This document shows, in pieces, positions 11,289-56,150 of a stretch of 64,000 bases of DNA. Each line of letters starts with the position of its first letter. Position 1 is the stretch's first letter. The notes beneath the pieces are model-generated. The model did no database searches. It was not told the origin of the DNA and saw only the letters and a list, made by a program, of their open reading frames with translations. Origin of the DNA: Gammaproteobacteria bacterium (GTDB taxonomy: Bacteria > Pseudomonadota > Gammaproteobacteria > UBA4575); NCBI GenBank assembly GCA_965207475.1, contig OZ242278.1:1589935-1653934 (forward strand). Direction: 5' to 3'. A program made the position numbers and the translations under genes.

Positions 11289-11327
11289 TTGGCAGGACCC
11301 TGCACGGGTCACAGGCCGGGCGTATCC

Positions 11328-38455: not shown

Positions 38456-40903
38456 ATGGCGGAGTATATGGCAGAACCGGGCGGCCTGGATCCCGGTATA
38501 TCTAGAAGAGGTATGGTCGAGCCGTCGGTTCTGAATGCTCTCCCGCACTTTTTGTCCCTTACAGTTTTTCCACTTTTAATCTGTGCCGTGGTATACGGTG
38601 GCTGGTGGATCATCGGGCCGTTTGTCTACTTCGGGCTCGCAAACTGGTTTGACTCGCTGTTTGGCATGGAAAAGCGAAACATGGACCCGGGCAATACGCT
38701 CGAAAGCCAGTTATTCCTGTACAAGCTAGCTGTCTGGATGTGGGCTGTGATGTGGCCCGCCACACTCGTGCTCTCGCTTTGGCTGATGCTTGTCGCTGAC
38801 CATTTGGCCGTTTGGGAATCTGCACTGATCACCATCACCTTGTTTTTTACAGCCCAGTCAATCTTCATCGTTGGACATGAGCTGGTGCACAGGACCTCCT
38901 GGCTGGAAAGACGGTTTGGTGAATTCCTCTTGGCGTCGTCTTCCTATCCGCATTACGCTACTGAACATATTTATGTTCATCATTCTCTGGCCTGTACGCC
39001 TGCTGATCCCGGGTCTGCGAGAAAGGGCCAGAGTTTCTGGCAGTACTTTCCCAGGGATTTGAGGCGAAGTCTGATCGAGTCCTGGCGTTTTGAGCGCGAC
39101 CGGCTTGCACGACGGCACTTGCCTGTGTGGCACTATACGAATCCTTTCTGGCGCTACTCCCTAGAAACCGCTGCGTGGTATGCGCTGGTGTACTGGATGG
39201 GAGGGATCTGGGTAGCGCTGGTCTTCGCCGTATTGTGTTTCTTCCTTGTCCTGTCGATGAAAATCATCAACTATGTCCAGCACTATGGGCTGGAGCGCAT
39301 CCGCCTTCCCGGCGGCCGGTATGAGCCGGTTCTGGTGCGACACTCCTGGAGTGCTGCCAGCAGGTTCACCAACTGGCTCTATTACAATATGCAACGCCAT
39401 TCGGACCATCACACCGAGGCCACCCGGTACTACCCGCTGTTGCAGTATCACGGTGGGGACGAGTCGCCACAGTTACCGGAAGGTTACTCCGCGATGGCTA
39501 ATTACGCGATGGTCCCTCGTGTCTGGTTCCGAAAGATGGATCCGCTGGTTGATCGCTGGCGTGCACACTTTTATCCACAGATTGAGGACTGGAGCGCCTA
39601 TGACAGCGCTGCATACGCTGCCTGCCCGGACGAGTTCGAAGCCATTTCGGAGATCTATGATGCCGCACCACGCATGGCCGAATGGATAAACCGGGCTCCG
39701 GAACTGCTCGAGAGCCTGCGGGACAGGGAGTTCACCGCTCTTGACCTCCCGGATGGCTTCGCCCCGGATCCGGAATTCGAAATGGTTGCGCGGCGAGGGC
39801 TGGCGCGTGTGTACTGGACACGCGAGTTTGATGTTTCTGAAATGAAGGAGCAACTTGCCGCAATACCGGCCCAGGGCGTAAAGGAAGTGGTAGAGACTGC
39901 AAGAAACTGGCTCAACGACAAGGTCTTTCAGATCAGCATGCACATGATCCGCGGTAATCTGCAGCCGACCGAGGCAGGGAAAGTCCTGTCCAACCTTGCC
40001 GAGGCCTCGGTCTGCATCCTGCTGTCGGCGGTTGAGGTGGAATTTGCCAACCGGCGTCGTCGACGCGGCGAAGGTGCCGTCACAGCTGTACTTCTGGGTG
40101 AATCTGCCAGCGGAGAGGCAGCACCCGGTACAAGGCTCGATGTCATGTTCGCGTACGAAGGCGGCCCTGTAGAATATTATCAAGCCCTGTGCAGACGGTT
40201 CCTTGAGGAACTGCGTACATTTTCGCATGAAAACCTGCTTTTTCAGCCACTTCCACGTGGCGGGAAGGGAAGGGGTGTCTGGTCCGTGGCTGAATTTGCC
40301 GAACATTACCGGGGAGACACGGTGAACGGTCTGCCGGACCTCATTCAGTCACGGTGTGTCTTTGAATCCGGAAATCCCGGAATTTGGACCCGCCTGGACA
40401 CGGTGCGACACGAAGTCCTGTCCTCTGGTGCTTCCCGCATCGCACAGGCAGATGCGTTGCGTGAAGCTCTGGGAGCAGCCGGTACGGCCGAACCGGGTCT
40501 GCAGTCGATCGAAGAAATGCGTGGTGGCCTTCGGGAGCTCGTGCATGCAGCCAGGCTGGTACAACTGGCCCATGCCGGTGAGGCTCCTGAAATTCTGGTT
40601 CCTGATACGGCTTCCGCATTCCGGACTGCAGGCAGTCTCGGGCTGATTGCCGGGGATGTCTCCAGGCGGCTGGCCGATGCAGCAGAGATGTGGTTGAACC
40701 TGCATGGCATTTTGCGACTGGTGGTCAAGGATGGCTTTGCCATCGAGAAGGCAACACCGAAGGTCCAAGCCGTCATTGCCCGTTCCTGCGGGATGAAGGA
40801 TTTCAGTGCGCTGACCGATGCAATACATGAAACGGCGGACCGTACCGCTGCAGACATCGATGCGCTGGACAGCACAGTCCTGAAATCAACCCGTATATCC
40901 TGA
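38456..40903 (+). CDS. Fusion protein: AlkB/fatty-acid-desaturase-type membrane di-iron oxygenase (N-terminal) + GlnE/GlnD-like nucleotidyltransferase domain (C-terminal)
   Basis: His boxes HELVHR, EHIYVHH, NYVQHYGL and RHSDHH lie within TM segments. The C-terminal half aligns with the GlnE adenylyltransferase core (LDVMFAYEG; LFQPLPRGGKGRGVWSVAEFAEHY; LIQSRCVFESGNP). A GGAGG SD precedes the ATG. Confidence 0.7.
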   Translation: MAEYMAEPGGLDPGISRRGMVEPSVLNALPHFLSLTVFPLLICAVVYGGWWIIGPFVYFGLANWFDSLFGMEKRNMDPGNTLESQLFLYKLAVWMWAVMWPATLVLSLWLMLVADHLAVWESALITITLFFTAQSIFIVGHELVHRTSWLERRFGEFLLASSSYPHYATEHIYVHHSLACTPADPGSARKGQSFWQYFPRDLRRSLIESWRFERDRLARRHLPVWHYTNPFWRYSLETAAWYALVYWMGGIWVALVFAVLCFFLVLSMKIINYVQHYGLERIRLPGGRYEPVLVRHSWSAASRFTNWLYYNMQRHSDHHTEATRYYPLLQYHGGDESPQLPEGYSAMANYAMVPRVWFRKMDPLVDRWRAHFYPQIEDWSAYDSAAYAACPDEFEAISEIYDAAPRMAEWINRAPELLESLRDREFTALDLPDGFAPDPEFEMVARRGLARVYWTREFDVSEMKEQLAAIPAQGVKEVVETARNWLNDKVFQISMHMIRGNLQPTEAGKVLSNLAEASVCILLSAVEVEFANRRRRRGEGAVTAVLLGESASGEAAPGTRLDVMFAYEGGPVEYYQALCRRFLEELRTFSHENLLFQPLPRGGKGRGVWSVAEFAEHYRGDTVNGLPDLIQSRCVFESGNPGIWTRLDTVRHEVLSSGASRIAQADALREALGAAGTAEPGLQSIEEMRGGLRELVHAARLVQLAHAGEAPEILVPDTASAFRTAGSLGLIAGDVSRRLADAAEMWLNLHGILRLVVKDGFAIEKATPKVQAVIARSCGMKDFSALTDAIHETADRTAADIDALDSTVLKSTRIS

Positions 40904-41010: not shown

Positions 41011-43359
41011 TTGGAGAAAAGTACGGACAGGAAGGCATCACCTAACGCCGGTTCATCCCGCAGTATTCTGAAGAAAACCACCGAAGCTGACTGCGGTTTC
41101 ATCGAGAAACCCGTACTTGTCCCGCACCTGGAATTCAGGTTGCTGGGCGGGCGGCAAGCGCTGCTGGTTTCTGAAACTTTCAACACGCTGCTCCATGGGC
41201 AGCTGGTTTGCGATATTCTGCCGCTTCTTGATGGCCGCCGCACACGCCGGGACATCATGGCATCCCTGACCGGCAAGCATCTGGGGCCCGATATCCTGAC
41301 CGCGCTCACCTTCTTGACAACCAAGGGGTATATTGTCTCGGGGGAGTACAGAATGGAACAGGGGCAGGCGGCATACTGGTCTTCACAGGGTGTCACTCCT
41401 CGATATGCCGAGGAGCGGCTGAAGTCATTGCAGGTAGATGTAGCCGGCGATGAAGGCCGCCACCTTGCCCGGCGGCTTGAAGCCATGGGTGTGTACTTGG
41501 ACAGGAGCCATCCGGCCCTTTCCATTATCATTTGTGCCGATTTTCTTGATGAGCGGAATGCGGCCCTCAACCGGCGCCATGTCAGCTCTGGCGTACCCTG
41601 GTTGCTGGTCAGGCCAAAGGGCGTGATTCCACTGCTTGGCCCGGTTTTCCGGCCTGCGGAGCAGGGGCCTTGCTGGGCCTGCCTGGCCTACCGCCTGCAA
41701 GGCCAGCAGGAGGTCCATAACTTCCTGCGCAATCGTGCCGGCACTGAGGCCGCCTTTCAGCCCTTTGCGGCCGAACCCATGGTGCTGGAGACGGTGTACG
41801 GGCTGTTTGCGGCGGAGATTGCCAAGTGGCTGGTCTTCGGCGAGCTGGCGCCGATACATGAGCATGCAATCACGCTGGATGTCGCTGCACTGAAAACGGC
41901 GAGACATCCGGTGCGCAGGCGACCACAGTGCGTGGTGTGCGGCGAGGAAAGGCACTTCAGCCCTGATCGCCCGGCCAGTCCGGTGCACCTCAAGTCCAGT
42001 CCCAAAAACGTTCAAAACAGTGGTGGTGTGCGCTCGGTGTCTCCCGAAGAGACCCTGGCCAAGTACCGCCATCTCATCAGCCCAGTCAGCGGGGTGGTGA
42101 CCTGGATCGAACGTACCACGGACGTGTACGATCACTGGCTTCATGTCTATTGGGCCGGTAGCAATCTGGCCCTTCGTGTCAAAAACCTGAGCTCGCTGAG
42201 ACGCAGCCTGCGGAGCAAGAGTGCAGGCAAGGGAAGCACACCCGAACAGTCCGAGGCGAGTGCGCTTTGCGAGGCGGTTGAGCGCTATTCGGGCGCATTC
42301 CACGGGGATGAGATCCGTACTTGCAAACGGTTTTCAGAATTTTCTGACAAGGAACAGGAGTTTGACGCCATCCACCCGAACCAGGTCCAGTTGTTCAGTG
42401 ATCACCAGTTCGACCATGCGCGCGAGATCAATGCCAGGCAACATCCCTACAATTTTGTTCCTGGCCGGCTCGACCCGGAGGCTGCGATCGAATGGTCGCC
42501 GGTCTGGTCGCTCACGCGAGGTCGGCACTGTTACCTTCCGACCTCCATGCTCTACAGCATGACGCCGGAGCAGCGAGGCACTTCAGACTTGATTGCGGAT
42601 TCGAACGGCTGTGCGGCCGGCAATACGCTGGAGGAAGCTATCCTGCAGGGATTTTTCGAACTGGTGGAACGTGACGCGTTCGCCATCTGGTGGTACAACC
42701 GGCTGCGCTTTCCCGCGGTCGACCTGGAGAGTTTTGGCGACGCCTACCTTGCGGGTGCGCAGGACTACTACCGAAAGCTCCACCGCGAGATGTGGCTGCT
42801 GGATATCACGGGTGATTTTGGCATTCCGGCCTTTATTTCCATCTCGCGACGAACCGATTCACAACCCGAAGACATCCTGTACGGGGCCGGTGCGCACACC
42901 GATCCGCATATCGCGGCCTTGCGTGCAGTATGCGAAATGAACCAGTGCCTGACCTGGGTTCCCCGCCCGGAAACCGGCCATACCGGGTACGGAGTGGATG
43001 ACCCGATGTGCCTGTCATGGTGGAAGAACGCCACGCTTGAGGAATATCCCTACCTGGCCCCCGATCCTGGGGCCGCAACACGGGGCCGCCCGGATTATTT
43101 CGTGCCCGAAACTTCGGATGTGAAAGAGGATGTCGAGCGGTGCGGTGCACTGGTAAAAGCCAGGGGCCTGGAGATGCTTGTACTTGACCAGACCCGTCCC
43201 GATATCGGCATGCCGGTAGCCCGGGTGATCGTGCCGGGATTGCGTCACTTCTGGGAAAGGTACGCACCGGGGCGCCTGTACGACGTGCCGGTCAACATGG
43301 GCTGGCGGGAAAAACCGCTGGCTGAGGCCGACCTCAACCCCGTCCCGGTCATCGCCTGA
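41011..43359 (+). CDS. Fused E1-like (leader-binding/ThiF-like) + YcaO cyclodehydratase, PatD/TruD-like
   Basis: The 782-aa protein has an N-terminal E1-like domain with Cys pairs (CWAC, CVVCGE) and a C-terminal YcaO domain (ALCEAVERYSG; CAAGNTLEEAILQGFFELVERDAFAIWWYN). It appears to start at TTG. Confidence 0.85.
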   Translation: MEKSTDRKASPNAGSSRSILKKTTEADCGFIEKPVLVPHLEFRLLGGRQALLVSETFNTLLHGQLVCDILPLLDGRRTRRDIMASLTGKHLGPDILTALTFLTTKGYIVSGEYRMEQGQAAYWSSQGVTPRYAEERLKSLQVDVAGDEGRHLARRLEAMGVYLDRSHPALSIIICADFLDERNAALNRRHVSSGVPWLLVRPKGVIPLLGPVFRPAEQGPCWACLAYRLQGQQEVHNFLRNRAGTEAAFQPFAAEPMVLETVYGLFAAEIAKWLVFGELAPIHEHAITLDVAALKTARHPVRRRPQCVVCGEERHFSPDRPASPVHLKSSPKNVQNSGGVRSVSPEETLAKYRHLISPVSGVVTWIERTTDVYDHWLHVYWAGSNLALRVKNLSSLRRSLRSKSAGKGSTPEQSEASALCEAVERYSGAFHGDEIRTCKRFSEFSDKEQEFDAIHPNQVQLFSDHQFDHAREINARQHPYNFVPGRLDPEAAIEWSPVWSLTRGRHCYLPTSMLYSMTPEQRGTSDLIADSNGCAAGNTLEEAILQGFFELVERDAFAIWWYNRLRFPAVDLESFGDAYLAGAQDYYRKLHREMWLLDITGDFGIPAFISISRRTDSQPEDILYGAGAHTDPHIAALRAVCEMNQCLTWVPRPETGHTGYGVDDPMCLSWWKNATLEEYPYLAPDPGAATRGRPDYFVPETSDVKEDVERCGALVKARGLEMLVLDQTRPDIGMPVARVIVPGLRHFWERYAPGRLYDVPVNMGWREKPLAEADLNPVPVIA

Positions 43360-43526: not shown

Positions 43527-43773
43527 CTCCACCGCATTGACCTTCAGTCTGTGTTGCCGCGGATGGTAAATACCTTGATCAACCTTGGTTTGGACTCAGT
43601 GGATTCGGAGCACGTGGTCTAAGTTGGACTGCTCTCGGAGTAACAGGGTTGCAGGCTGCGAAATGGCATGTTTATTACTTGGCATGAGGCTTCCGTTGCA
43701 ATGAAGCTTGTTGCGCGACTTGCCGCCAAGGCCGTTCGCAGCTAGTCACGTCATTCCTGTGAGCAAGCGCGGC

Positions 43774-46104
43774 ATGAAAAAAGGGCAATTTGCCAGGCGA
43801 TTTGCCGAACAGGTGCTCACGGCCCGCTGGCTGGTCATCGTGGCCACGCTGTTACTGGTTGCGGGCGCATCAAGCGGCATCGCCCTGCTTGAATTCTCAG
43901 CCAACTACCGAATCTTCTTCGACGAAGACAATCCGCAGCTTCTGGCATTGGAAGCACTGGAGAATACTTACGGGAAGAACGAGAACATCGTGTTCCTGAT
44001 TGCCCCGGACGATGGTGACGCCACGTCACAAAACGCACTGTCGGCCGCCGTCTGGCTCACGGAAGCCGCCTGGTTGACGCCCTATTCAAGGCGAGTCGAC
44101 TCACTCGCCAATTTTCAGTACACGACTGCCGATGGCGACGATCTGTATGTGCGGGACCTTGTTGATCCGCAGGAACTGGCCCAGGCCGAGGTGCGGTCAC
44201 GAATTCGTGACGTTGCCCTGTCCGACCCGCGGATAGCAGGCACCATTCTAGCCCGGAATGCTGATGTCAGCGTTGTAAACGTCGCGGTCGAGCTGCCCGA
44301 GGAGGGCCTGCTGGAGGCTGTGGCCGAAGTCGCCGAATATGCCAGGTCGGTTGCCGCGGAGGCTGAAGAACGGTTTCCCGACATAGACCTTCGCATCGTC
44401 GGTACGGTCATGATCAACCAAACCTTCCTGGAAGCCTCGATCAACAGCCAGAAGGTTTTCCTGCCCGCAAGCCTGCTGCTCATGGCCTTGATCCTTGGTG
44501 TCCTCACACGGGGCTGGGCAGGGGTGGCGGCGACCGGAATTGTCATAGTCTTTTCCATTTTCACGTCAGTGGGCCTGGGTGTGTGGGTCGGCTTACCCTT
44601 TTCCCCGCCCGTCTCGCCAGCACCGACCATCGTGCTGATGATCGTCGTGGCAAACTGTGTGCACTTGCTGGTGGCTGTGCAGCAGCATTTGCGTGCGGGG
44701 GATTCCAAGCACGACGCCATCGTTGAAGCTGTCAGGCTCAACTTGCACCCGGTATTTCTGGCGAGTCTCACAACGGCGATTGGATTCTTGAGCATGAACT
44801 TTTCCGAAGTGCCGCCCTATCGTCATCTCGGAAACTTCGTCGCATTCGGAATCGTCGCCTCTTTCGTTCTCTCCGTCACCTTTCTTCCGGCCCTGCTTTC
44901 GCTTCTTCCTATCCGTGCGGCAAAGGACCGTCGGCTGCTCCGCGGACCCACAATGCACCGCTTGGCGGATGTTGTGTTGCGCCATAGAAAGCCGCTGTTT
45001 TGGGGATGGCTGGTGGTTGTGCTTGCAATGATTCTGTCCATTCCGCGAAACGAGCTCAATGATGTTCTGGTCCACTTTTTCGATGAGGGCGTTGAATTCC
45101 GGCAAGATGTGGACTTCATGGACGAGCACCTAAGCGGCAACACCCTGCTTGAGTACTCGCTGCACGCATCTGCTGAGGGAGGTGTCACCGATCCGCTTTT
45201 CCTCGCCGAGGTTTCGAGCTTCGCCGGCTGGTACCGTGACCAGCCCCCTGTACGCCACGTGTCGGTCATTACCGATACCTTTCAGCAACTTAACAAGAGC
45301 ATGCACGGAGACGACCCGGGTGCCTACCGAATACCGGAAAGCCAGGAACTGGCGGCACAATACCTGCTGCTTTACGAACTCTCGCTTCCGCAGGGTCTGG
45401 ACCTGAACAATCAGATTGACAGGTCCAGATCAGCCACGAGAGTGACGGTCTCGGCGGAAACACTTTCTTCGCAAGAAGTGCTTGAGCTGAATGCGCGTGC
45501 CGAGGCATGGCTAAAGGAAAATGCATCGCATGTTGCCGGCGTCAACAGCACCGGCCCCGCCGCGTTGTTCGCCTACATCGGGCATCGCAACATTCGGGCC
45601 ATGCTAGTCGGGACAATGGTTGTTCTCTTGGCAATTTCTGTCATTCTGCTCGTCGCGTTGCAATCACTGCGACTGGGCTTGATAAGCATCGTCCCCAATT
45701 TGATTCCTGCAGTGCTGGGCTTCGGTGTCTGGGGATTGATGGTCGGACAGGTTGGACTTTCGCTATCTGTCGTGGTGGCCATGACCGTCGGCATCGTCGT
45801 GGATGACACTGTGCATTTTCTCAGCAAGTACCAGCGGGCGCGAAATGAATACGGCCAGAGTCCCGAGGAAGCGGTACGCTACGCCTTTGACACGGCAGGC
45901 CGGGCCCTGTTTACAACGACGGTCGTGCTGGTGGCCGGTTTTTTGATTTTTATGTTTTCACCCTTCGTTCCCACCGCACAGGTTGGTGTCCTCACCGGGA
46001 TGATTATTGCCTTTGCATTCATCGCCGACCTGACACTCCTGCCTGCGTTGCTGACAGCGGTGGACCGGAATGCTGCAAAGCGGACCGCGCTTGCACCCGA
46101 CTGA
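43774..46104 (+). CDS. MMPL-family / RND-superfamily exporter (HpnN-like, two SSD-like 6-TM bundles)
   Basis: The 776-aa protein has an N-terminal TM (RWLVIVATLLLVAG) and two periplasmic domains with an overall MMPL layout. The ATG at 43774 is preferred over the TTG at 43708. Confidence 0.8.
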   Translation: MKKGQFARRFAEQVLTARWLVIVATLLLVAGASSGIALLEFSANYRIFFDEDNPQLLALEALENTYGKNENIVFLIAPDDGDATSQNALSAAVWLTEAAWLTPYSRRVDSLANFQYTTADGDDLYVRDLVDPQELAQAEVRSRIRDVALSDPRIAGTILARNADVSVVNVAVELPEEGLLEAVAEVAEYARSVAAEAEERFPDIDLRIVGTVMINQTFLEASINSQKVFLPASLLLMALILGVLTRGWAGVAATGIVIVFSIFTSVGLGVWVGLPFSPPVSPAPTIVLMIVVANCVHLLVAVQQHLRAGDSKHDAIVEAVRLNLHPVFLASLTTAIGFLSMNFSEVPPYRHLGNFVAFGIVASFVLSVTFLPALLSLLPIRAAKDRRLLRGPTMHRLADVVLRHRKPLFWGWLVVVLAMILSIPRNELNDVLVHFFDEGVEFRQDVDFMDEHLSGNTLLEYSLHASAEGGVTDPLFLAEVSSFAGWYRDQPPVRHVSVITDTFQQLNKSMHGDDPGAYRIPESQELAAQYLLLYELSLPQGLDLNNQIDRSRSATRVTVSAETLSSQEVLELNARAEAWLKENASHVAGVNSTGPAALFAYIGHRNIRAMLVGTMVVLLAISVILLVALQSLRLGLISIVPNLIPAVLGFGVWGLMVGQVGLSLSVVVAMTVGIVVDDTVHFLSKYQRARNEYGQSPEEAVRYAFDTAGRALFTTTVVLVAGFLIFMFSPFVPTAQVGVLTGMIIAFAFIADLTLLPALLTAVDRNAAKRTALAPD

Positions 46105-46393: not shown

Positions 46394-46645
46394 ATGAGAA
46401 GCGGAGATGATATGCTGAAGCAGATTGTTGAGAAGTCTGCCTTGAATGCGGAGTTCAGGCAACAGCTTCTTGATGATCCAAAATCTACCATCAGTGGGGA
46501 GCTGGGTATTACAATTCCCGATTCGATGAATGTCGTGGTCCATGAGAGCGACATGCAGACGGTGCATCTTGCACTGCCACCGGACCCGAACATCACCGAG
46601 GAGCAGCTTGAGGCGATTTCAGCCGGCCTTTGCTGTTGCTGGTAG
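46394..46645 (+). CDS. NHLP (nitrile-hydratase-leader-peptide) family RiPP precursor; predicted core LCCCW after a GA/GG-type cleavage site (…EAISAG|LCCCW)
   Basis: The leader reads KQIVEKSALNAEFRQQLLDDPKSTISGELGITIPDSMNVVVHESDMQTVHLALPP, which is characteristic of NHLP leaders. An AGGAG SD lies 7 nt upstream, and the protein is 83 aa with a C-terminal Cys3-Trp. Confidence 0.8.
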   Translation: MRSGDDMLKQIVEKSALNAEFRQQLLDDPKSTISGELGITIPDSMNVVVHESDMQTVHLALPPDPNITEEQLEAISAGLCCCW

Positions 46646-46768: not shown

Positions 46769-47827
46769 TCAGGTGGAAACCGCTCCGGAAAGTACCATGA
46801 ACACGTAGGCTTTCGCTTTTCGGAGTTGATTTTCAGATATGACCAGTTTGATGTGGTGAATGCCACGTAGCATGACAAAACGCCCGGACTTTGCAAAGAG
46901 CGTTGTCGGTTTCGAAACCCAGTCAGCAAGTGCCGTCAGTTTCTCCGAGTCTACAAGGTCCTCATGACCGAGGGCATCCAAAAACGGGTCCCAATCGGTC
47001 AGGCCATCGAGCCAATAACGTGAATCCTTTGTATATCTCTGCTTGACGATAAGCGTAAGGCCGAGCGTCGGACCAACACCTTCTTCCCGCACGTCAATAT
47101 TCACCCCGGTCCTGACGATGTTCACGCGTTTCTTGAAGCGTGCAATCACGGAATCGACCGCAGAGACCTGGCCCGGCCAACCCGTGTTTTCGAGATAGCC
47201 ACATATTTCCTGCTGCGATTTGAAACCCATGATTGCCAGGCGGATTGCACGTGAGCGAGACGGGAATATGCCGAACGAATCCATGCGCGTATCGCCTGGC
47301 TGCGCCAGGTAGGCTCGTTCGACATTCTCCCGCTTGGTGTCGTGCATCCCCCAGCCTACACTGGAAACTAGCGCTTCAACCACCAGACCGATATCGTTCA
47401 CCTGACCACGGGCTCCAATGATTGGCCGTTCCCCGGGCCGAAGGAACATTCCCGGAAGCGAACAGTTGCTTTCCTGCGCCGAGCCAATGTCATATTCCAG
47501 CATCAGCTTGCGGCCTACGATTTCACGCAGGGGCGAGTTTTCGGCATCCATTTGTGTACACAACCGCGCGATCGCTTTTGCAGTCTCATCTGTCCTGTCA
47601 GTCCGTGCGCGCTCCATGAAAAACCCTGCCGTCCTGGTTCCGCTTGCCAGGGAAACGCCGAAATCCGCTTCAGGCCTGTGCGTATGCAACGGCAGTTCAA
47701 AGCCGAACGGAAGGGCGCCCATGGTAATGGGATGTTTCCTGGCACATTCGAGTATGCGCTCCCATTCCGGGACTCCGATAAGAATCGGAGAAATCCTGTT
47801 TCGAAAGTGCTCAAGCAATTCACCCAT
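46769..47827 (-). CDS. Hypothetical protein (352 aa) in RiPP cluster, unknown fold
   Basis: The ORF has coding-like composition and a GAGGG SD but no motif I recognise. It is the last gene of the minus-strand block. Confidence 0.5.
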   Translation of the reverse strand: MGELLEHFRNRISPILIGVPEWERILECARKHPITMGALPFGFELPLHTHRPEADFGVSLASGTRTAGFFMERARTDRTDETAKAIARLCTQMDAENSPLREIVGRKLMLEYDIGSAQESNCSLPGMFLRPGERPIIGARGQVNDIGLVVEALVSSVGWGMHDTKRENVERAYLAQPGDTRMDSFGIFPSRSRAIRLAIMGFKSQQEICGYLENTGWPGQVSAVDSVIARFKKRVNIVRTGVNIDVREEGVGPTLGLTLIVKQRYTKDSRYWLDGLTDWDPFLDALGHEDLVDSEKLTALADWVSKPTTLFAKSGRFVMLRGIHHIKLVISENQLRKAKAYVFMVLSGAVST

Positions 47828-48292: not shown

Positions 48293-49594
48293 TCAGGCCC
48301 TCAAGATTTCTACGAGACGCTCCAGGGCCTCGATACAAAAAGCAGAGGTAACGGATTCAGAGCCATGTCCTATCTGCCCTACAGCGCCCCACTTCAGCGA
48401 CTGGTCACCAAACGCGAGAAGCTCCGGCCAACTGCCGTCCTCATGTTGCGAGCTTATGAGCCTTTCCACCTGACGTTTCGCATCGGTGCTTTCAAGGTTG
48501 CCAGTATTGTAGAGCGCTGACACGGCCTGGGCGGTCTGGAGGATGTTGCCGAATTCTCCCTGCTCATCACGCAAGCCCAGGATACGGTCCGCAAGTAGCG
48601 GGCGCAGTTGATCAAGGGCAGGTTGCACACGAATCATGGCACGGGTGATTGCATAGCAGATTGTGACAGTGTCGGGATACCATTTGGACGAGCCCTCGAG
48701 GCTCCCGTCGGCAATCAGGGATTTCAGCCATCGTTGGGCAGCCTTGGTTTCGGGGTTGTCACCGAGGTAAGCGATGACGTTTGCATTGACTACGGGGTCC
48801 GCTTCGATACGAAATCTCGACACGACATTGGGCTCGTCTTCCTCCAGTACCCAGGTCATGAAACGACCCTCCTCGTCACGGTTCGCCAAGATTCGCGGAA
48901 CATTCCTTCCCAGCAAGATCCAGGGATGAGTCCCGATGACAAGGGAGCAGGTGGTGGTACTGTCAAGATCCTGGGGCAGATGCCGGTAGTAGCGCCACAA
49001 TCCGGGGTATTCAATGGTGTCGGCAAGATACGCCTTGGTGGCGGTGCATAGGGCCCTGGCCTTCGCTTCATCGCAGCATTCCAGGGCCAGTACGCAAAGA
49101 GCCGAGATAAAAGGAGGTCTTTCGAAATGCCGTGGGATGTCCGGGTCGGCTATGTTGAACCGGATGCAGTGCCAGGCACCATTTTCGTCAATTGTGGATT
49201 CCAGGAAATCGAGGCCGCGGCGGATACTTTTCCTGCCCGCTTTTACAAGCTCCTTGGTGGTGGCTGCGTGCTGTCGGGCGTACTCACTTTCAGGGGCAGG
49301 GGAACGAAAAGCCGGTGCGGGGTCATGAAGTGTCTTGCGAAGATACTCAAGTGAAGCAACGCCTGTTTTAGCCGCCTCCCGTTCGGCCTCACTGAGTTTG
49401 CTACACGGCGGCAGCACCAAGTGAGTCGAGGTATAGGTTTCTTCGTGCACGTGAATTTCATGATCCTCGGCCAGCGTCACGCCGAGTTCCTTTTCGATTG
49501 TTTCTTTGGGCTTCCCGAGCAGGCGTTCGCGAAAGTCACTGTCCTCGCCCGCTCTCGACACGAGAAACTCTGCTGCGTTATTCGGCTTTTTCAT
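48293..49594 (-). CDS. NHLP-leader-like N-terminal domain fused to an alpha/alpha-toroid repeat domain (prenyltransferase/terpene-cyclase-like NGAW/DGSW repeats)
   Basis: The first ~65 aa (FRERLLGKPKETIEKELGVTLAEDHEIHVHEETYTSTHLVLPP) are paralogous to the precursor's leader. The remaining ~360 aa contain ENGAW and EDGSW repeat motifs. Confidence 0.6.
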   Translation of the reverse strand: MKKPNNAAEFLVSRAGEDSDFRERLLGKPKETIEKELGVTLAEDHEIHVHEETYTSTHLVLPPCSKLSEAEREAAKTGVASLEYLRKTLHDPAPAFRSPAPESEYARQHAATTKELVKAGRKSIRRGLDFLESTIDENGAWHCIRFNIADPDIPRHFERPPFISALCVLALECCDEAKARALCTATKAYLADTIEYPGLWRYYRHLPQDLDSTTTCSLVIGTHPWILLGRNVPRILANRDEEGRFMTWVLEEDEPNVVSRFRIEADPVVNANVIAYLGDNPETKAAQRWLKSLIADGSLEGSSKWYPDTVTICYAITRAMIRVQPALDQLRPLLADRILGLRDEQGEFGNILQTAQAVSALYNTGNLESTDAKRQVERLISSQHEDGSWPELLAFGDQSLKWGAVGQIGHGSESVTSAFCIEALERLVEILRA

Positions 49595-49951: not shown

Positions 49952-52894
49952 TCAGGCGATCTGTCTTTTGACCAGTTTTCTGAATACCCCTTCAGCCTCC
50001 ATGAGTTCCTTGAAGGAGCCGCTTTGCACAACTTTTCCGGTCTGTAACACGTAGATGCGATCAGTCTGTTGCAGCGTGGACAGGCGATGGGCGATGACAA
50101 CCCGGGTGGGGGTCAGGGCAGTGAGGTTCTGCATGACCTTGGCCTGGTTTTCGTTATCCAGCCAGTTGGTTGCCTCGTCAAACAGCATGATTCGCGGACT
50201 GCCGATCACCGAGCGGGCGATTGTGACGCGCTGACTTTCACCCCCTGACAAAACCGCTCCGCTGGACCCGACCATGGTCATCATGCCCATGGGCATGCCC
50301 TTGATTTCGTTCTCGACTTCTGCAACCCTGGTCGCTGTCCAGACATCCTCGGTCGCCACTTCCTCGTGATGACTGACCAGATTGTCCCAGATATCCATGG
50401 GGTGGAGCCCGACAGATTGTGGCACTGCGCCGATTTTCCGGCGCACCTGTTTCAGGTTCAGGTGCCTCAGGTCCCGCCCGTCGTAATACACTGCGCCAGC
50501 AGTCGGGCGGTCGACTCCAAGCGCGAGCCGGAACAGGGTGCTCTTGCCTGCACCGGACTCGCCGGTGATCGCGACAAATTCGCCAGGACGGGCGTGAATC
50601 GTCACATCATCGAGAATTAACGGGCCATCAGGATCGTAACGAAAGGAAACCCGGTCGAACAGAATTTCGCCACCCAGATATTCAACCGGCTCTCCTTCGG
50701 TCTCGGTTTCAGGAACTGCTGCGAGCAGCGGACGCATCTGGTCGAATGCAGGCAGCATGGCGGCAATGGTGCCGAAGGACTCGCCCAGCCGGGCGATTGC
50801 GGACTGGAAAACGATGAAGACCAGGTAGACGACGAGAAAATCACCGATCAGGATGTGCCGGTCGCTCACCGCTGCCACCGCGAATAGCAGTACCCCACCC
50901 GCGAGAAAGGGGAGCGCGGCACCAAATGCGCGTGCATGCCCCTCAAATGCCCCCAGTTCGAGTTCTGCGCGTTTCTGCTCGCGATAATCCTGCGCCCAGA
51001 TGGCGAATGCCGAACCTTCCGCGTTTTCCACGCGCAGTTTGGTGAAACCGCCCACGATCTGGAACAGCCTGCCGGAAACACGACGCGCTGCACGGATCAT
51101 CCGCCCATATGGTGAAATCTGGAGCAAGCCAAGGGCTACCGTGATCAGCAGCGAAGCCAGACTGAAGGCGAGGGTAATGACCCCGAGGGTGGTGTTGTAG
51201 AAGAAAATGATGCCAAATACCGGAAGCAGGAAAATAATCGACAGCAAGCTGTCGGCGACGACTCCTTGCAAGCCATCGCGAAGATTCTGGAACGTCATCC
51301 CCGACATGGCCAGGTCGCCGGTTGAATGGCGGTGCAGAATGCTTGCCGGAAGGCGCATGAGGCGGTCCCAAAAGGCAGCTTCGGCCCGCGATGCGGAACG
51401 ACCCTCAAGCCGCATCATTGCCGTGCTTTGAAACAGGTGCAGCAGTGCACCGAGCAGACCAAATACCGCCAGCGCCACGGCCACTGAATAGATCACTCCG
51501 GCACTTCCGCCTGCAGTTATTTCATTTGCAGCGTAGCCTAGGGCGAGGGCTGGCAACAGTTTGATCAGGCCGCCCGGAAGCCCGGAAATCACCAGCCGCA
51601 CCAGATCCGCGGCTGATCCATGCAGGGCGATTCCCAGCAGGTCAGACGGTTTCACGTTCTCCGAAGGCAAGGGGCGATAGAACATCCAGGCTTCTTCCCC
51701 CAGCGTGTTGGCGCGACCTGCTGCAATCCGCACGCTGCACTTGCTGACTGGGTCGATTTCCCGATAGCGCCCAAATTTTCCCGGCAGCAGCGCTACGGGC
51801 TGGCCATCCTCTGCCCGAAATCCCAGCATCGCGCTACTGTCGCCGCGCCACCAGTGGTCTTCGGCTTTCAATCGTACGCGCCGGGCACGTACGGCTGATG
51901 CATCAAGCACTTCAACGAGGCTGACCGGAGTATCGGAAGGTTCCGAGCGCGTGGGAATCTTGAAATCGATACCTTCATGGCGGCCGATGATTTGCAAGGC
52001 ATCTGTCAGGGCCGTGTCTTCGACACGGGTATCCTGGCCTGTCGGCAAGTCATAGATATTGAAAAGCCGCTGTCGTGCAGTTTTTTCAGCCGTACGTCGG
52101 CTGGTCGTCCGTGCACGTTCGAGATTCACTTCGTCGACCACGGCCAGTTGGCGGTTAAGGCGTTCCAGGGCGAATGCAACCGCGTGAAAAGATGCGAGCG
52201 CTGGCAGCAACATGTCTTGCTGAGCCAGTGTTTCCGTTGATTTACCCAGCAATGTGGCCCTGTCAAACAAGGTGAGCCAGCTTGTCCGCGTCAGCGGTAT
52301 CATGGTTTCATGTGAGCCGCTTGCTTCGGCAAGCTCTGCCTGGTCGACGATGTCCATGAACAGGAATTCGCCGCGCAGTGGCTTGGATACCCATACCACA
52401 TTGCGATGTACGGACAGTATGCAAGGTGGAAAGGTCCGTGCCATACCGGGATCGGCCAGCGCAGTTGCACGCGGAATGGGGCTTGCAAACCGAGAAAGTG
52501 TGTCAGTAATGGCGGTCAGCCAGGTATCCGTCTGCTCCGCCAGTTCTGCCGGATGAACCTCGGACAGCAAGGATGCCGGGAGGCGCTTCAGAAGAGTACC
52601 TGGCGATCCTTTTGCAATCAGGCTGAGGGTGGTATCTTTATTGTTGTCACGTTCGTCTGGTGCCACCCCCGGCAGTATCCAGCCCGCTTCGCGACGCAGC
52701 AGATGCTGCGGCGCTGCCTGTTCCACCCCGTCCTTGAATTCAACCAGGAACAGATTGACGGAACCCTGGTCAATAAACCAGACACTGCCTGGGTCGTCGA
52801 GTTTCACCGGCAAGTTGCCGGCACAAGGTACGGTTGTGCCGGAACGAGCTACGAGTTCGGCAATCGATGTGCAGTTCGGGCTTTTGTCCAGCAT
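49952..52894 (-). CDS. NHLP/NHLM-type bacteriocin ABC transporter, ATP-binding/permease protein without an active peptidase (N-terminal accessory domain + 6TM + NBD)
   Basis: The 980-aa protein has Walker A GESGAGKST and signature LSGGESQRV, with a ~450-aa N-terminal extension lacking the C39 Cys. Confidence 0.8.
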   Translation of the reverse strand: MLDKSPNCTSIAELVARSGTTVPCAGNLPVKLDDPGSVWFIDQGSVNLFLVEFKDGVEQAAPQHLLRREAGWILPGVAPDERDNNKDTTLSLIAKGSPGTLLKRLPASLLSEVHPAELAEQTDTWLTAITDTLSRFASPIPRATALADPGMARTFPPCILSVHRNVVWVSKPLRGEFLFMDIVDQAELAEASGSHETMIPLTRTSWLTLFDRATLLGKSTETLAQQDMLLPALASFHAVAFALERLNRQLAVVDEVNLERARTTSRRTAEKTARQRLFNIYDLPTGQDTRVEDTALTDALQIIGRHEGIDFKIPTRSEPSDTPVSLVEVLDASAVRARRVRLKAEDHWWRGDSSAMLGFRAEDGQPVALLPGKFGRYREIDPVSKCSVRIAAGRANTLGEEAWMFYRPLPSENVKPSDLLGIALHGSAADLVRLVISGLPGGLIKLLPALALGYAANEITAGGSAGVIYSVAVALAVFGLLGALLHLFQSTAMMRLEGRSASRAEAAFWDRLMRLPASILHRHSTGDLAMSGMTFQNLRDGLQGVVADSLLSIIFLLPVFGIIFFYNTTLGVITLAFSLASLLITVALGLLQISPYGRMIRAARRVSGRLFQIVGGFTKLRVENAEGSAFAIWAQDYREQKRAELELGAFEGHARAFGAALPFLAGGVLLFAVAAVSDRHILIGDFLVVYLVFIVFQSAIARLGESFGTIAAMLPAFDQMRPLLAAVPETETEGEPVEYLGGEILFDRVSFRYDPDGPLILDDVTIHARPGEFVAITGESGAGKSTLFRLALGVDRPTAGAVYYDGRDLRHLNLKQVRRKIGAVPQSVGLHPMDIWDNLVSHHEEVATEDVWTATRVAEVENEIKGMPMGMMTMVGSSGAVLSGGESQRVTIARSVIGSPRIMLFDEATNWLDNENQAKVMQNLTALTPTRVVIAHRLSTLQQTDRIYVLQTGKVVQSGSFKELMEAEGVFRKLVKRQIA

Positions 52895-55104
52895 CAGCCC
52901 GACTTAACCAGTTTGTAATACATGCCACCCTGGTCCGCAATCAACTCATCGTGCGTACCGCGCTGTACTGTAACGCCCTTGTCAAGCACGATAATTTCGT
53001 CACAATCCCGCACGGTACTCAGCCGGTGCGCCAAGATCAGGCAGGTGACACCGCGACGCCGCAAGGCATCATCAACGTATTCCTCTGTCGCTGCATCGAA
53101 CGCGCTGGTCGCCTCGTCCAGAATGAGCACTGTCGGATTGCCCACCAGCGCACGGGCGATTTCCAGCCGTTGTCGCTGGCCTCCACTGAAATTCACACCG
53201 CCTTCCTCGACGACGGTTGAATATCCTTGTGGCCTGAGCAGGATTTCGTCATGAATCTGGGCATCCCGCGAGGCGGCGAAGATGACTTCATCCGGTATGG
53301 CTGAGTTCCATAAGGTGATATTGTCGCGCAGCGACGCGGAAAAGAGCACGATTTCCTGATCCACCATGGAAATGGACTGCCGGAGCACTTCCTCGGGAAT
53401 CTCATCCCGCAGATGCCCATCGAACAGGATTTCGCCTGACCATGGCTGGTAGACACCCGAAACCAGACGTGCCAGGGTCGACTTGCCAGAACCACTGGGA
53501 CCGACTACGGCAACCCGCTGTCCTGGTTTGATCATGAGGCTGAAGTCCTGTATCAAAGGCGGTCGGCTCTTGTTGAAACCGAAGGTGACGTTTTGCAGTT
53601 CAAGCTGGCCGGCAAGCTGGAGCCGACCATTGAATGTGGGGATTGACTCCGATTCCGGACTTCGGCGGCTGTAAATGGGGTCTTCAGCGGTCTTGGAGAT
53701 ATCCTCAAGCCGTTGCAGATCGGTTTCGAGCGCCTGGCGTTTGTCGACGAACCCCAAAAAACGGCCAACAGGTGCCAGGAACATCTCTGCCAGGATATAG
53801 AACCCAACCAGTGCTCCCAGGGTCATTTCGCCGGTCATGACCAGGCTTCCCCCTATGCCGATGATCACGGCACTGCGAAGCACGGCAACCAGGCCCGGAA
53901 GCGCAGTATTGACCGAGCCCAGTTCGGAATAGAGCTGGCGCGCATGCAGTTCGCGCGCTTGATGACCGCTCCAGCGGGAAAAAAACCGGTCATCCGATCC
54001 TGTCATGCGCAGGTTGTCTGCATGGCTCAACATCTGCATGCCGACGCCTATCAACAATCCTTGTTCTCGCCGCATGGCCTGGCTGCGAACCCCCCGAAGC
54101 GCGTTGAGAAAGTGGAGCAACATTCCATGTGCAAGGGCCAGCAACAGTACCATCAGTGTGAGCAGGACATCGTAGGCCAGCATCGCGGCCAGTAACACCG
54201 CGCTCATTGCCATGTCGATAATGAGCACAAGAAACTGGTCGGTCAGGTTCTTCGCAATCCTGTCGATGGACGAGACCCGGTCAGTCAAATCACCTGCCAG
54301 CCTGTGTTCAAAAAACTCCACCGGCAATCGCAGTAACCGCGACACGCCCCGGTTGTAGCCAATCACCGATATCCGGACTTCGAGTCGCTTCAGGAACCGG
54401 TGCTTGAGCAGGGACAAAATGTATACCAGGACACCGCCGCCGAGCAGGGCTGCCACCAGTCCACCCCAGGGACCATGGTTTTCCAGAACATCGTCCACGA
54501 AAAAACTGAGAGCTACGGGCACAACAAGTGCCAGTAACGTCAACATGAATCCGCAAGCAATCACTACGGCAAGCACACTCCATGATCCGGCAAGCAAGGT
54601 GGTCAATTGACTGAGCAAGTCGGGACGCTCGCCGCCGGGTTTGAAATCGCCACTGCGCTTGAATCGCAGCGCAATTCCACTGTAGTCCTTGCTGAATTCT
54701 TCGGCAGTAACCCTGCGCCGCCCCGTGGACGGGTCATTGAGGTAGAAATAGCCGTCATCGAAACCCTCAAGGACAACGAAATGGCTGAATTGCCAGAACA
54801 AAATCAGAGGCAACTGCAGCTTCTTCAGTTGCTCAGCGCGTATACTGAGTCCATTGCATTCAAGACCATAGTGTCTGGAAGCGCGCGCGAGGCTCGCAGC
54901 ACTGCTGCCGTCTCGACTCACCTCGCATTTTTCGCGCAATTCCGTAAGCGGCACCCAGCGTCCGAAGTATGCCAATATGCTGCCAAGGCAGGCGGCACCA
55001 CATTCTGATGCGTGCATCTGTAGTAGGATTGGCGTGGTGATCCTTTGTTTCAAGGAGTCCGAGGCAGTGTTGTCTCCAGCCCCTTTAGAGGCGCTTGGCG
55101 GCAT
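52894..55104 (-). CDS. NHLP-type bacteriocin ABC transporter with N-terminal C39 peptidase domain (peptidase/permease/ATPase)
   Basis: A C39 active-site Cys lies in QMHASECGAACL, followed by 6 TM, Walker A GPSGSGKST and signature FSGGQRQR. Confidence 0.85.
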   Translation of the reverse strand: MPPSASKGAGDNTASDSLKQRITTPILLQMHASECGAACLGSILAYFGRWVPLTELREKCEVSRDGSSAASLARASRHYGLECNGLSIRAEQLKKLQLPLILFWQFSHFVVLEGFDDGYFYLNDPSTGRRRVTAEEFSKDYSGIALRFKRSGDFKPGGERPDLLSQLTTLLAGSWSVLAVVIACGFMLTLLALVVPVALSFFVDDVLENHGPWGGLVAALLGGGVLVYILSLLKHRFLKRLEVRISVIGYNRGVSRLLRLPVEFFEHRLAGDLTDRVSSIDRIAKNLTDQFLVLIIDMAMSAVLLAAMLAYDVLLTLMVLLLALAHGMLLHFLNALRGVRSQAMRREQGLLIGVGMQMLSHADNLRMTGSDDRFFSRWSGHQARELHARQLYSELGSVNTALPGLVAVLRSAVIIGIGGSLVMTGEMTLGALVGFYILAEMFLAPVGRFLGFVDKRQALETDLQRLEDISKTAEDPIYSRRSPESESIPTFNGRLQLAGQLELQNVTFGFNKSRPPLIQDFSLMIKPGQRVAVVGPSGSGKSTLARLVSGVYQPWSGEILFDGHLRDEIPEEVLRQSISMVDQEIVLFSASLRDNITLWNSAIPDEVIFAASRDAQIHDEILLRPQGYSTVVEEGGVNFSGGQRQRLEIARALVGNPTVLILDEATSAFDAATEEYVDDALRRRGVTCLILAHRLSTVRDCDEIIVLDKGVTVQRGTHDELIADQGGMYYKLVKSG

Positions 55105-55656: not shown

Positions 55657-56150
55657 GACCGTGAATCTCCCTATGAAAAATCAGGCAGGGGCAAAAATCT
55701 GGTCCAGCTTGAGTAGGATTTTTAGAGATTATATGCAAATATCGATTGTGAAATATAAAATTTTCATGGTTCTGGAAATTTAGTGTGGTGTGTATCGGCG
55801 GAGGGCTTTCAGGCCAGGTCGTTTTCAGCTTCTTTATTTTGGTCAAGCCCCGTTTCTGGTCTTCCATCCGGAGGCAGTGGAGCCAGTAGCCTGTGATCGC
55901 GGCGGGAAGGGCATGGTACAGGTCGCCGGCAATCCCATGCCGTGGTGGCCTCCTCGTCGATGCCGGTGATCACCGGCATCGTGTCATGAATCCTCTGCCG
56001 AGTGCGCCCTGTTGGAATTTCCAGCCAGCCCATGGCTTCACCCTTTGCAGGGAATTCACGGTATAATGCCACTCGTTTGTCACGGTACCTGTGTAGATGT
56101 TTCCTGACTACGAAACTGCCGAAATCCGGCTTGTCGGCCGAGACTGGACA

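What the first reader, a model, noticed from the sequence alone, without database searches (positions are those of the whole stretch)
46394..46645. Precursor peptide with a five-residue core LCCCW
The 83-aa product has a textbook NHLP leader ending in ...TEEQLEAISAG. Cleavage at a GG/GA-type site would leave only the five residues L-C-C-C-W as core. Three consecutive Cys presented to a YcaO/E1 heterocyclase would give a tandem tri-thiazol(in)e. That product is reminiscent of nonribosomal metallophores such as yersiniabactin or pyochelin-type thiazolines, but here it would be made ribosomally. The C-terminal Trp offers a handle for the adjacent halogenase or for another modification.
Basis: seen in the sequence. 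Interest (0 to 1): 0.9.

Follow-up and report, generated by a model that had tools for sequence, protein, structure and literature searches.

The report
SrpE precursor of sponge srp cluster

Summary
The 252-bp ORF at 46394-46645 encodes exactly the 83-aa peptide described: an NHLP leader ending ...TEEQLEAISAG, followed by LCCCW. It is not a chance ORF. It exceeds the NHLP model cut-off, 299 species genomes encode it, all 120 listed relatives end in AGLCCCW, and pN/pS is 0.10 (0.02 for residues 50-83).

It is 83% identical to published SrpE, the precursor of the sponge-derived RiPP proteusin (srp) cluster (Nguyen et al., JACS 2021, and follow-ups). Those papers show by experiment that the YcaO enzyme SrpC converts the three Cys to thiazolines. 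They also show that SrpI brominates C6 of the terminal Trp in a leader-dependent way, and that AG is the leader/core boundary. The metallophore idea has no support here.

In this window the srpI homolog lies 11.8 kb away and is frameshifted.

The parts
46394..46645 (+). srpE: NHLP (proteusin) precursor, 83 aa. Leader is residues 1-78 (46394-46627), core LCCCW is 46628-46642, stop is 46643-46645.
   Evidence: TIGR03793, 66.1 bits. 83% identical to published SrpE. pN/pS 0.10.
41011..43359 (+). SrpC-type cyclodehydratase: wHTH/RRE + E1-like (TIGR03882) + YcaO (TIGR03604) fusion, up to 782 aa (the true start may lie downstream of the TTG).
   Evidence: YcaO 3.7e-95; TOMM_cyclo_SagD 273.8 bits vs cut-off 219. 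Present in 44 of 58 full-flank loci.
38456..40903 (+). Fusion of an AlkB-like membrane di-iron hydroxylase (residues ~52-368) with a GlnE-like nucleotidyltransferase domain (~461-800). Always next to the YcaO gene in related loci.
   Evidence: PDB 8f6t alkane 1-monooxygenase, E 2.3e-56. Gene order. His boxes HExxH and EHxxxHH found in 43 of 45 tblastn hits, and the NTase acidic motif is degenerate.
43708..46104 (+). RND/MMPL transporter of the HAE3/HpnN-like type.
   Evidence: MMPL 9.7e-34; partial HpnN and HAE3 matches, well below the equivalog cut-offs. Present in 23 of 58 full-flank loci.
46769..47827 (-). 352-aa 'hypothetical' protein with an ABBA (PT-barrel) aromatic-prenyltransferase fold. 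Convergent with srpE and immediately downstream of it.
48293..49594 (-). 433-aa fusion of an N-terminal NHLP/nitrile-hydratase-alpha-like domain (33% identical to the SrpE leader) with a C-terminal alpha/alpha-barrel that resembles class II terpene cyclases. The DLDST motif is invariant.
   Evidence: NHase-alpha, E 1.8e-6. Low-confidence AF2 model, pLDDT 55, yet the Foldseek top 14 are all class II cyclases. Motif. Present in 52 of 58 full-flank loci.
49952..52894 (-). NHLP-type bacteriocin export ABC permease/ATPase (ABC2 type, no peptidase domain).
   Evidence: TIGR03797, 665 bits, slightly below the 709 cut-off. Present in 55 of 58 loci.
52894..55104 (-). NHLP-type export ABC transporter with an N-terminal C39 double-glycine peptidase domain. 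This is the predicted leader peptidase that cuts after Ala77-Gly78.
   Evidence: Peptidase_C39 8e-34; TIGR03796 840 bits. Catalytic Cys in QMHASECGAAC and His in SHFVVLEG.
55105..55656 (-). Short (183 aa) HlyD-like membrane-fusion protein. The short form is conserved in related loci.
   Evidence: weak TIGR03794 N-terminal match..
56097..56969 (+). LolA-like / DUF1329-like periplasmic lipid-carrier-type protein.
   Evidence: LolA_like 7.4e-60. Present in 27 of 58 loci.
56969..58198 (+). 409-aa protein with a weak DUF1302-like (outer-membrane) match.
   Evidence: E 5.4e-4, below the cut-off. Co-located with the LolA-like gene in related loci.
58478..59750 (+). srpI homolog (flavin-dependent Trp-6 brominase), interrupted by a frame change at about 58851-58870 within a (CG)n run.
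   Evidence: two Trp_halogenase fragments; residues 1-131 in frame +2 at 82% identity and residues 126-426 in frame +3 at 77% identity to published SrpI. 33 of 37 related loci have a single ORF.

Best explanation
The ORF is srpE, the precursor peptide of the published sponge-derived RiPP proteusin (srp) gene cluster. The whole 21-kb cluster lies at 38456-59750.

Shown by published experiments on orthologs: the long NHLP leader docks the peptide onto the E1-like/YcaO enzyme SrpC through the (I/L)TEEQL motif, and SrpC cyclodehydrates the three consecutive Cys to thiazolines. The flavin-dependent SrpI brominates C6 of the C-terminal Trp while the leader is still attached. A double-glycine-type (AG) site marks the leader/core boundary.

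Inferred here from domain content: the cluster's own C39-peptidase ABC transporter cuts after Gly78 and, together with the second ABC protein and the short HlyD-like protein, exports the five-residue product. With no azoline dehydrogenase in the cluster, the rings probably stay as thiazolines.

Inferred here, with lower confidence: an ABBA-fold prenyltransferase-like protein and an NHLP-tagged class II cyclase-like protein add and cyclise an isoprenoid. The HpnN-like RND, LolA-like and DUF1302-like proteins then move the hydrophobic product to the outer membrane.

In this particular genome bromination may be lost, because srpI is frameshifted.
For: Identity: 69/83 identical to published SrpE with no gaps. 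The srpI homolog is 77-82% identical to published SrpI over its full length.

Published chemistry: SrpC makes three thiazolines, SrpI is a leader-dependent Trp-6 brominase, and LahT150 releases the modified LCCCW core (PMC10286304; PMC10858898; supplementary note and mass table). The tabulated mass of 569.15 equals [M+H]+ of LCCCW minus 3 H2O minus 4 H by my arithmetic.

Translation and selection: pN/pS is 0.10. Others reported a 252-bp precursor gene with an LCCCW core as the most highly transcribed gene of these clusters in sponges (bioRxiv 10.1101/2023.06.09.544420).

Enzymes present: YcaO/E1 and a C39-ABC with catalytic Cys and His.

Same gene set in 80 related loci from at least seven phyla by record name.

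Proposed terpenoid steps: ABBA fold; cyclase-like domain, invariant DLDST; DxDTT is the class II catalytic acid motif; HpnN-like RND.
Against: No experiment was done on this locus, so orthology carries the functional claims. I could not compare the YcaO with published SrpC because I had no sequence for it. The authors report that SrpC has poor activity and gives partially modified mixtures in E. coli, so full tri-cyclisation in vivo is not proven. The mature natural product has not been isolated, and the cluster was still called 'cryptic' in 2025. srpI is frameshifted here. The terpenoid steps rest on fold similarity only: sequence identity is 6-16%, there is no sequence-level bridge to known prenyltransferases, and the cyclase model has pLDDT 55.
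Confidence: 0.9

Rival explanations
1. Metallophore reading. The tri-thiazoline peptide is a ribosomal analogue of yersiniabactin or pyochelin-type chelators, secreted to capture a metal and then taken up again.
For: Tandem thiazolines are metal ligands in nonribosomal siderophores (general knowledge). The product is exported.
Against: The cluster and its flanks hold no TonB-dependent receptor, no periplasmic binding protein or importer, no reductase and no metal-regulation gene. The core has no phenolate or hydroxamate cap. The conserved accessory genes instead point to lipid or isoprenoid handling. No accessible paper reports metal binding.
Confidence: 0.07
2. The minimal published product is the final product. 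The mature compound is just (Br-)Trp-terminated tri-thiazoline LCCCW, and the other conserved genes serve only export, immunity or regulation, with no further chemistry.
Against: The ABBA-fold and cyclase-like genes are linked to srpE at least as tightly as the YcaO (47 and 52 vs 44 of 58 loci). They are 75-85% identical across phyla. The DLDST acid motif is invariant, and basic and aromatic residues are near-invariant across the wider ABBA-fold family. This pattern fits active enzymes better than it fits relics.
Confidence: 0.3
3. SrpE is not cleaved. The whole 83-aa NHLP protein is the functional entity, and its modified, hydrophobic C-terminus acts as a membrane anchor in a CaaX-like way.
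For: The 'leader' is unusually conserved for a discarded segment (pN/pS 0.16 for residues 1-49). NHLPs are folded, protein-like domains.
Against: The AG site is invariant, and a C39 peptidase-ABC exporter of the NHLP-specific type is conserved in the cluster. A C39 domain (LahT150) releases the core in vitro. Recognition by several enzymes explains the leader conservation.
Confidence: 0.04
4. The real cleavage site lies upstream, giving a longer core.
For: In another NHLP system (PalX), cleavage by cell lysate occurred eight residues from the C-terminus at a non-GG site.
Against: The NHLP model runs to Gly78. The authors mark AG as the boundary. Residues 69-78 (EEQLEA[I/V]SAG) are essentially invariant, as expected for the YcaO-binding and peptidase-recognition motifs.
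Confidence: 0.03

Closest known systems
srp (sponge-derived RiPP proteusin) cluster: SrpE / SrpC / SrpI (Nguyen et al., JACS 2021, doi 10.1021/jacs.1c03474; PMC10286304; PMC10858898)
   Same: Same precursor: 83 aa, 83% identical, identical ...EEQLEAISAG-LCCCW C-terminus. Same E1-YcaO enzyme type. Brominase homolog 77-82% identical. Same spread over many bacterial phyla.
   Different: The leader carries ITEEQL rather than LTEEQL, a variant already noted in the 2023 preprint. srpI is 11.8 kb from srpE and frameshifted in this genome.
Mpr proteusin azol(in)e pathway of Methylovulum psychrotolerans (MprE / MprC / MprD)
   Same: An NHLP precursor processed by a YcaO cyclodehydratase through the L(X)4L motif and an RRE. 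MprC/MprD can heterocyclise an appended LCCCW core.
   Different: Mpr has an azoline dehydrogenase (MprD) and ten varied cores. The srp cluster in this window has no dehydrogenase and one frozen core. MprC does not accept the SrpE leader.
Cyanobactin-type short azoline peptides with ABBA prenyltransferases (PatF, PagF, LimF family)
PalX / PalQ (Paenibacillus alvei) and MppE / MppC / MppI
   Same: PalX is an NHLP precursor with a conserved C-terminal Trp that is prenylated, aided by the leader. The mpp lanthipeptide cluster pairs a Trp prenyltransferase (MppC) with a Trp brominase (MppI), both leader-dependent.
   Different: PalQ has an isoprenoid-synthase fold, not ABBA. Those cores lack azolines. 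No class II cyclase is involved.
Nonribosomal thiazoline metallophores (yersiniabactin, pyochelin)
   Same: Consecutive or multiple Cys-derived thiazolines.
   Different: They are made by NRPS Cy domains, carry a salicylate cap, and have dedicated TonB-dependent uptake. None of these is present here. The resemblance is only chemical.

Membership tests
srp cluster (SrpE family) | NHLP-leader precursor whose core is LCCCW directly after an AG double-glycine-type site | tested here: met
.
srp cluster (SrpE family) | High sequence identity to the experimentally studied SrpE | tested here: met
   69/83 (83%) identical, no gaps, against the leader sequence in the supplementary note of PMC10286304.
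srp cluster (SrpE family) | Co-located YcaO cyclodehydratase (SrpC) | tested here: met
   E1-like + YcaO fusion at 41011-43359. Identity to published SrpC could not be measured because no sequence was available to me.
srp cluster (SrpE family) | Co-located flavin-dependent Trp-6 brominase (SrpI), intact | tested here: inconclusive
   A homolog is present and 77-82% identical to SrpI, but it is split across two frames at ~58851-58870. This is either a genuine pseudogene or an assembly indel in a (CG)n run. In the 2023 preprint only 66 of 191 precursors were co-located with a halogenase, so the gene is not universal.
srp cluster (SrpE family) | Origin in a marine sponge microbiome | not testable with these tools
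   The window's source is not given. The exact peptide sits on a 2.14-Mb contig without a name. Relatives carry sponge-MAG style names such as 'Spongia_Bin9' and 'Candidatus Poriferihabitaceae'.
Proteusin / NHLP RiPPs | Nitrile-hydratase-alpha-like leader above the TIGR03793 cut-off | tested here: met
   66.1 bits vs 50.9. NHase_alpha 28.5 vs 27.2.
Proteusin / NHLP RiPPs | Dedicated NHLP-type ABC exporters, one with a C39 peptidase domain | tested here: met
   TIGR03796 at 840 bits and TIGR03797 at 665 bits, both marginally below the strict equivalog cut-offs. C39 domain 8e-34 with the catalytic Cys present.
[quoted passage not shown] | Fused or separate E1-like (C) and YcaO (D) proteins | tested here: met
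   TIGR03882 at 143 bits and TIGR03604 at 274 bits in one protein.
[quoted passage not shown] | FMN-dependent azoline dehydrogenase (B protein) | tested here: not met
   No SagB/nitroreductase-type protein among the cluster genes or the annotated flanks. This enzyme is optional in the class, and its absence implies azolines rather than azoles.
ABBA aromatic prenyltransferases (for the 352-aa neighbour) | PT-barrel fold of five alpha-alpha-beta-beta units | tested here: met
   [not shown]
ABBA aromatic prenyltransferases (for the 352-aa neighbour) | Sequence membership in a known prenyltransferase family, or demonstrated prenyl transfer | tested here: not met
   No Pfam, NCBIfam or PDB sequence match for the protein, its profile, or 48 distant relatives. 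Activity is not testable here.
Class II terpene cyclases (for the 433-aa neighbour) | Alpha/alpha-barrel beta-domain fold with a DxDD or DxDTT general-acid motif | tested here: inconclusive
   Foldseek top 14 are all class II cyclases, but from a pLDDT-55 model. Only one SQHop_cyclase repeat matches at sequence level. An invariant D-L-D-S-T resembles DxDTT but lies in a low-confidence part of the model.
NRPS thiazoline siderophores | NRPS cyclisation domains, an aryl cap and a cognate outer-membrane receptor | tested here: not met
   None were found in the cluster or in the rest of the window.

The most novel reading that the evidence does not exclude
The still-unidentified mature srp product is a ribosomal peptide-terpenoid hybrid. 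An unrecognised, Pfam-less family of ABBA-fold prenyltransferases (window 46769-47827) would prenylate the modified SrpE core, most plausibly the C-terminal (bromo)tryptophan. [quoted passage not shown] An AlkB-like hydroxylase fusion would tailor it further. An HpnN-like RND, LolA-like and DUF1302-like module would deliver the lipid-like product to the outer membrane. This would explain why the product has escaped detection as a simple pentapeptide, and why so many sponge symbionts keep the cluster.
Probability: 0.3. Interest if true: 0.75.

Novelty: already known. Interest (0 to 1): 0.3.

Why it matters
The finding itself re-discovers a published system, so it adds nothing new about the LCCCW core. 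The system is still biologically notable. One frozen five-residue core sits behind a leader that is more than 80% conserved, it is carried by hundreds of sponge-symbiont species from at least seven phyla, and it is reported as highly transcribed. Yet its product and ecological role remain unknown. The fold-level annotations obtained here give a concrete, testable route to that product, namely to look for brominated, thiazoline-containing peptides that carry isoprenoid mass increments. If confirmed, they would add a new prenyltransferase family and a leader-tagged terpene cyclase to RiPP enzymology.

Tried and rejected
- The primary JACS 2021 paper (PMC8780398) is not in the library, so I could not check how its authors annotated the accessory genes.
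- The supplementary legend of the 2024 Nature Communications paper names only srpE and srpI.
- An Rfam scan of the whole window found nothing.
- Sequence searches of the 352-aa protein found nothing. I tried the single sequence, a close profile and a 49-member distant profile, against PDB and Pfam. The prenyltransferase call is therefore fold-only.
- The structure model of the 433-aa protein was poor (pLDDT 55), so its fold hits are only suggestive.
- An exact-sequence look-up of the window's SrpE in the contig index found no record. The cluster look-up gave no sample name.
- The promoter/terminator scan around srpE was uninformative.
- A 12-nt direct repeat upstream of srpE (46333-46344 and 46355-46366) is shared only with the closest relative and not with other loci. 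I rejected it as a conserved operator.
- PDB 8tb1 turned out to be the MprE7-leader chimera rather than SrpE itself.
- The 2026 preprint on sponge halogenated peptides deliberately excludes RiPP clusters.

Full report
**Observation.** An AGGAGA ribosome-binding motif lies 7 nt upstream. The NCBIfam model for NHLP leaders (TIGR03793) scores 66.1 bits against a cut-off of 50.9. It aligns residues 6-78 to the very end of the model, so the leader ends at Gly78 and five residues, LCCCW, remain.

**Not a chance ORF.** A search of 5.8 billion protein clusters returned 700 hits. All 120 listed end in AGLCCCW and 115 are exactly 83 aa. Residues 50-83 are almost invariant. A scan of one genome per prokaryotic species found the gene in 299 genomes. 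Over 81 gene copies the synonymous difference is near saturation (pS 0.57) while pN is 0.059. That gives pN/pS of 0.10 overall, 0.16 for residues 1-49 and 0.02 for residues 50-83. This is long-standing purifying selection on a translated product, not just recent transfer.

**What it is.** A full-text search for 'LCCCW' led directly to the literature on the sponge-derived RiPP proteusin (srp) cluster. The supplementary note of PMC10286304 gives the SrpE leader and the SrpI sequence.
- The window peptide is 69/83 (83%) identical to SrpE without gaps. From residue 57 to the C-terminus the two differ only at position 67 (Ile in the window, Leu in published SrpE).
- The window also encodes a full-length homolog of SrpI, 77-82% identical.
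- The published experiments show that the YcaO cyclodehydratase SrpC converts the three Cys of LCCCW to thiazolines.
- They also show that SrpI is an obligate, leader-dependent tryptophan-6 brominase that requires the Trp at or next to the C-terminus.
- AG is the double-glycine-type leader/core boundary, and the C39 protease LahT150 releases the modified core.
- The tabulated mass of the modified core made with the surrogate MprC/MprD pair (569.15) equals [M+H]+ of LCCCW minus three waters and four hydrogens by my arithmetic. That corresponds to three rings, two of them oxidised by the Mpr dehydrogenase.
- A 2023 preprint describes 'a single 252 bp gene' with an LCCCW core and an ITEEQL motif, exactly as here, as the most highly transcribed gene of these clusters in several bacterial phyla in sponges.
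- A 2022 survey and a 2025 review treat srp as an established, widespread but still cryptic cluster whose ecological meaning is unclear.

**The locus in this window.** The cluster spans about 38456-59750. It lies between a uracil-DNA glycosylase gene and the glycine-cleavage genes. Its genes are:
- an AlkB-like di-iron hydroxylase fused to a GlnE-like nucleotidyltransferase domain (38456-40903; PDB 8f6t E 2.3e-56)
- the wHTH/E1-like/YcaO fusion (41011-43359)
- an HpnN/HAE3-like RND transporter (43708-46104)
- srpE (46394-46645)
- a 352-aa protein of no known family (46769-47827, minus strand)
- a 433-aa protein with its own NHLP-like N-terminus (48293-49594, minus strand)
- two NHLP-type ABC exporters, one with a C39 peptidase domain whose catalytic Cys and His motifs are intact (49952-55104, minus strand)
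- a short HlyD-like protein
- a LolA-like protein
- a weakly DUF1302-like protein
- the srpI homolog (58478-59750)

No SagB-type azoline dehydrogenase, TonB-dependent receptor or metal-uptake gene is in the cluster or elsewhere in the window. This argues for thiazolines rather than thiazoles, and gives no support to the metallophore analogy.

**The halogenase.** In this window the srpI homolog reads in frame +2 for residues 1-131 and in frame +3 for residues 126-426. The switch falls at about 58851-58870, inside ACGCGCGCGCC. In 33 of 37 related loci the gene is one continuous ORF. Either this symbiont has lost bromination or the assembly has an indel at a dinucleotide run. I could not decide between the two.

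**Conservation of the neighbourhood.** I compared the window's proteins with 80 related loci. Among the 58 loci with at least 9 kb on both sides of srpE, the counts were:

| Gene | Loci (of 58) |
|---|---|
| ABC2 | 55 |
| 433-aa NHLP-fusion protein | 52 |
| ABC1-C39 | 50 |
| 352-aa protein | 47 |
| YcaO | 44 |
| AlkB-GlnE fusion | 37 |
| short HlyD-like protein | 30 |
| halogenase | 28 |
| LolA-like protein | 27 |
| RND transporter | 23 |
| DUF1302-like protein | 17 |

Gene order is shuffled between lineages but the set persists. The pair 'srpE followed by the convergent 352-aa gene' is the most constant adjacency. The record names span Gamma- and Alphaproteobacteria, Chloroflexota, Gemmatimonadota, Acidobacteriota, Binatia, Deltaproteobacteria/Syntrophobacterales and Nitrospinae. 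Many names are in the style of sponge MAGs ('Spongia_Bin9', 'Candidatus Poriferihabitaceae'). Some genomes carry several copies, including orphan srpE genes (L012, L017 and L019 are on one contig).

**The two conserved 'hypothetical' genes.**

*The 352-aa protein.* It has 941 close homologs, all unnamed and without a Pfam domain, and no sequence match to any solved structure.
- An AlphaFold2 model built on 30 homologs is confident (pLDDT 85.3, pTM 0.85) and consists of five beta-beta-alpha-alpha units.
- All 50 top Foldseek hits are ABBA aromatic prenyltransferases.
- A profile search of 1.84 billion representatives shows a wider family of 653 clusters. It still has no Pfam or PDB sequence link. 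It keeps a Glu, an Asp, several Arg and Lys, and Tyr residues nearly invariant, as one would expect for a diphosphate-binding barrel. That last point is inference.

*The 433-aa protein.* Its first ~75 residues are NHase-alpha/NHLP-like. They are 33% identical to the SrpE leader, and the profile E-value against nitrile hydratase alpha is 1.8e-6. A conserved TG sits where SrpE has AG.
- The rest modelled poorly (pLDDT 55).
- Even so, its 14 best Foldseek hits are all class II terpene cyclases. They include a ~345-residue squalene-hopene cyclase from Cystobacter fuscus, drimenol synthase, and MstE, which cyclises a prenylated aromatic.
- A D-L-D-S-T motif is invariant in 26 members. It closely resembles the DxDTT/DxDD general-acid motif of class II cyclases.

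**How it most likely works.**
- *Shown on orthologs:* leader-guided tri-thiazoline formation by the YcaO enzyme, and leader-dependent C6 bromination of the terminal Trp.
- *Inferred from domains:* cleavage after Gly78 by the cluster's C39-ABC transporter, followed by export.
- *Inferred from folds and linkage, about 0.3 for the full scheme:* prenylation by the ABBA-fold protein, cyclisation by the NHLP-tagged cyclase, oxidation by the AlkB-like enzyme, and hand-over of a lipid-like product to the outer membrane by the RND, LolA-like and DUF1302-like module.

There are precedents for lipidating a Trp on long-leader RiPPs, though with other enzyme folds or contexts: PalQ/PalX, and MppC, which shares a cluster with the brominase MppI. 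I found no paper that connects prenylation or terpene cyclisation with srp. I could not read the 2021 primary paper, so I cannot exclude that its authors annotated these genes.

**Verdict.** The metallophore idea is unsupported. The residual interest lies in the unexplained, tightly linked accessory genes.

Noticed in passing
window 58478-59750 (+): The srpI brominase homolog is split across two reading frames at ~58851-58870, inside a (CG)n run. 33 of 37 related loci have one intact ORF. This is either a pseudogene or an assembly indel.
   Followed up: partly
[not shown]
   Followed up: yes
window 48293-49594 (-): A 433-aa protein fuses an NHLP/nitrile-hydratase-alpha-like domain (33% identical to the SrpE leader, with TG where SrpE has AG) to a class II terpene-cyclase-like domain with an invariant DLDST motif. 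A leader-like domain on a putative tailoring enzyme is unusual.
   Followed up: partly
window 38456-40903 (+): An AlkB-like alkane-hydroxylase domain (His boxes kept in 43 of 45 tblastn hits in related loci) is fused to a GlnE-like nucleotidyltransferase domain. Its acidic catalytic motif is degenerate (LDVMF here; D/E-x-[MLAR] in relatives). The gene always sits next to the YcaO gene. Its role is unknown.
   Followed up: partly
window 43708-46104 (+), 56097-58198 (+): An HpnN/HAE3-like RND transporter, a LolA-like protein and a weakly DUF1302-like protein travel with the cluster in many loci. The combination suggests export of a hydrophobic or lipid-like molecule rather than a simple peptide.
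   Followed up: no
L012, L017, L019 (all on contig CBDBZU010000004.1): One MAG carries three srpE copies. Two of them (L012, L019) are orphans with no other cluster gene within 10 kb.
   Followed up: no
window 8579-13592 and 460-1431: There is a run of an EgtB-like sulfoxide-synthase-type gene (FGE-sulfatase + DinB_2; 8579-9922, minus), a group-1 glycosyltransferase (9959-10921, plus) and a pyridine-nucleotide oxidoreductase fused to SelD-like AIR-synthase domains (11328-13592, minus). From memory, this resembles the selenoneine (senA/B/C) gene set. A radical SAM + DUF3641 protein lies at 460-1431.
   Followed up: no
window 46333-46344 and 46355-46366: A 12-nt direct repeat, TGTTAA(C/T)GTCAT, lies upstream of srpE. 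It is shared only with the closest relative (L001) and is not conserved in other loci. Most loci do have a strong AAGGAGG ribosome-binding site and their own TTGAC-like element upstream of srpE.
   Followed up: yes
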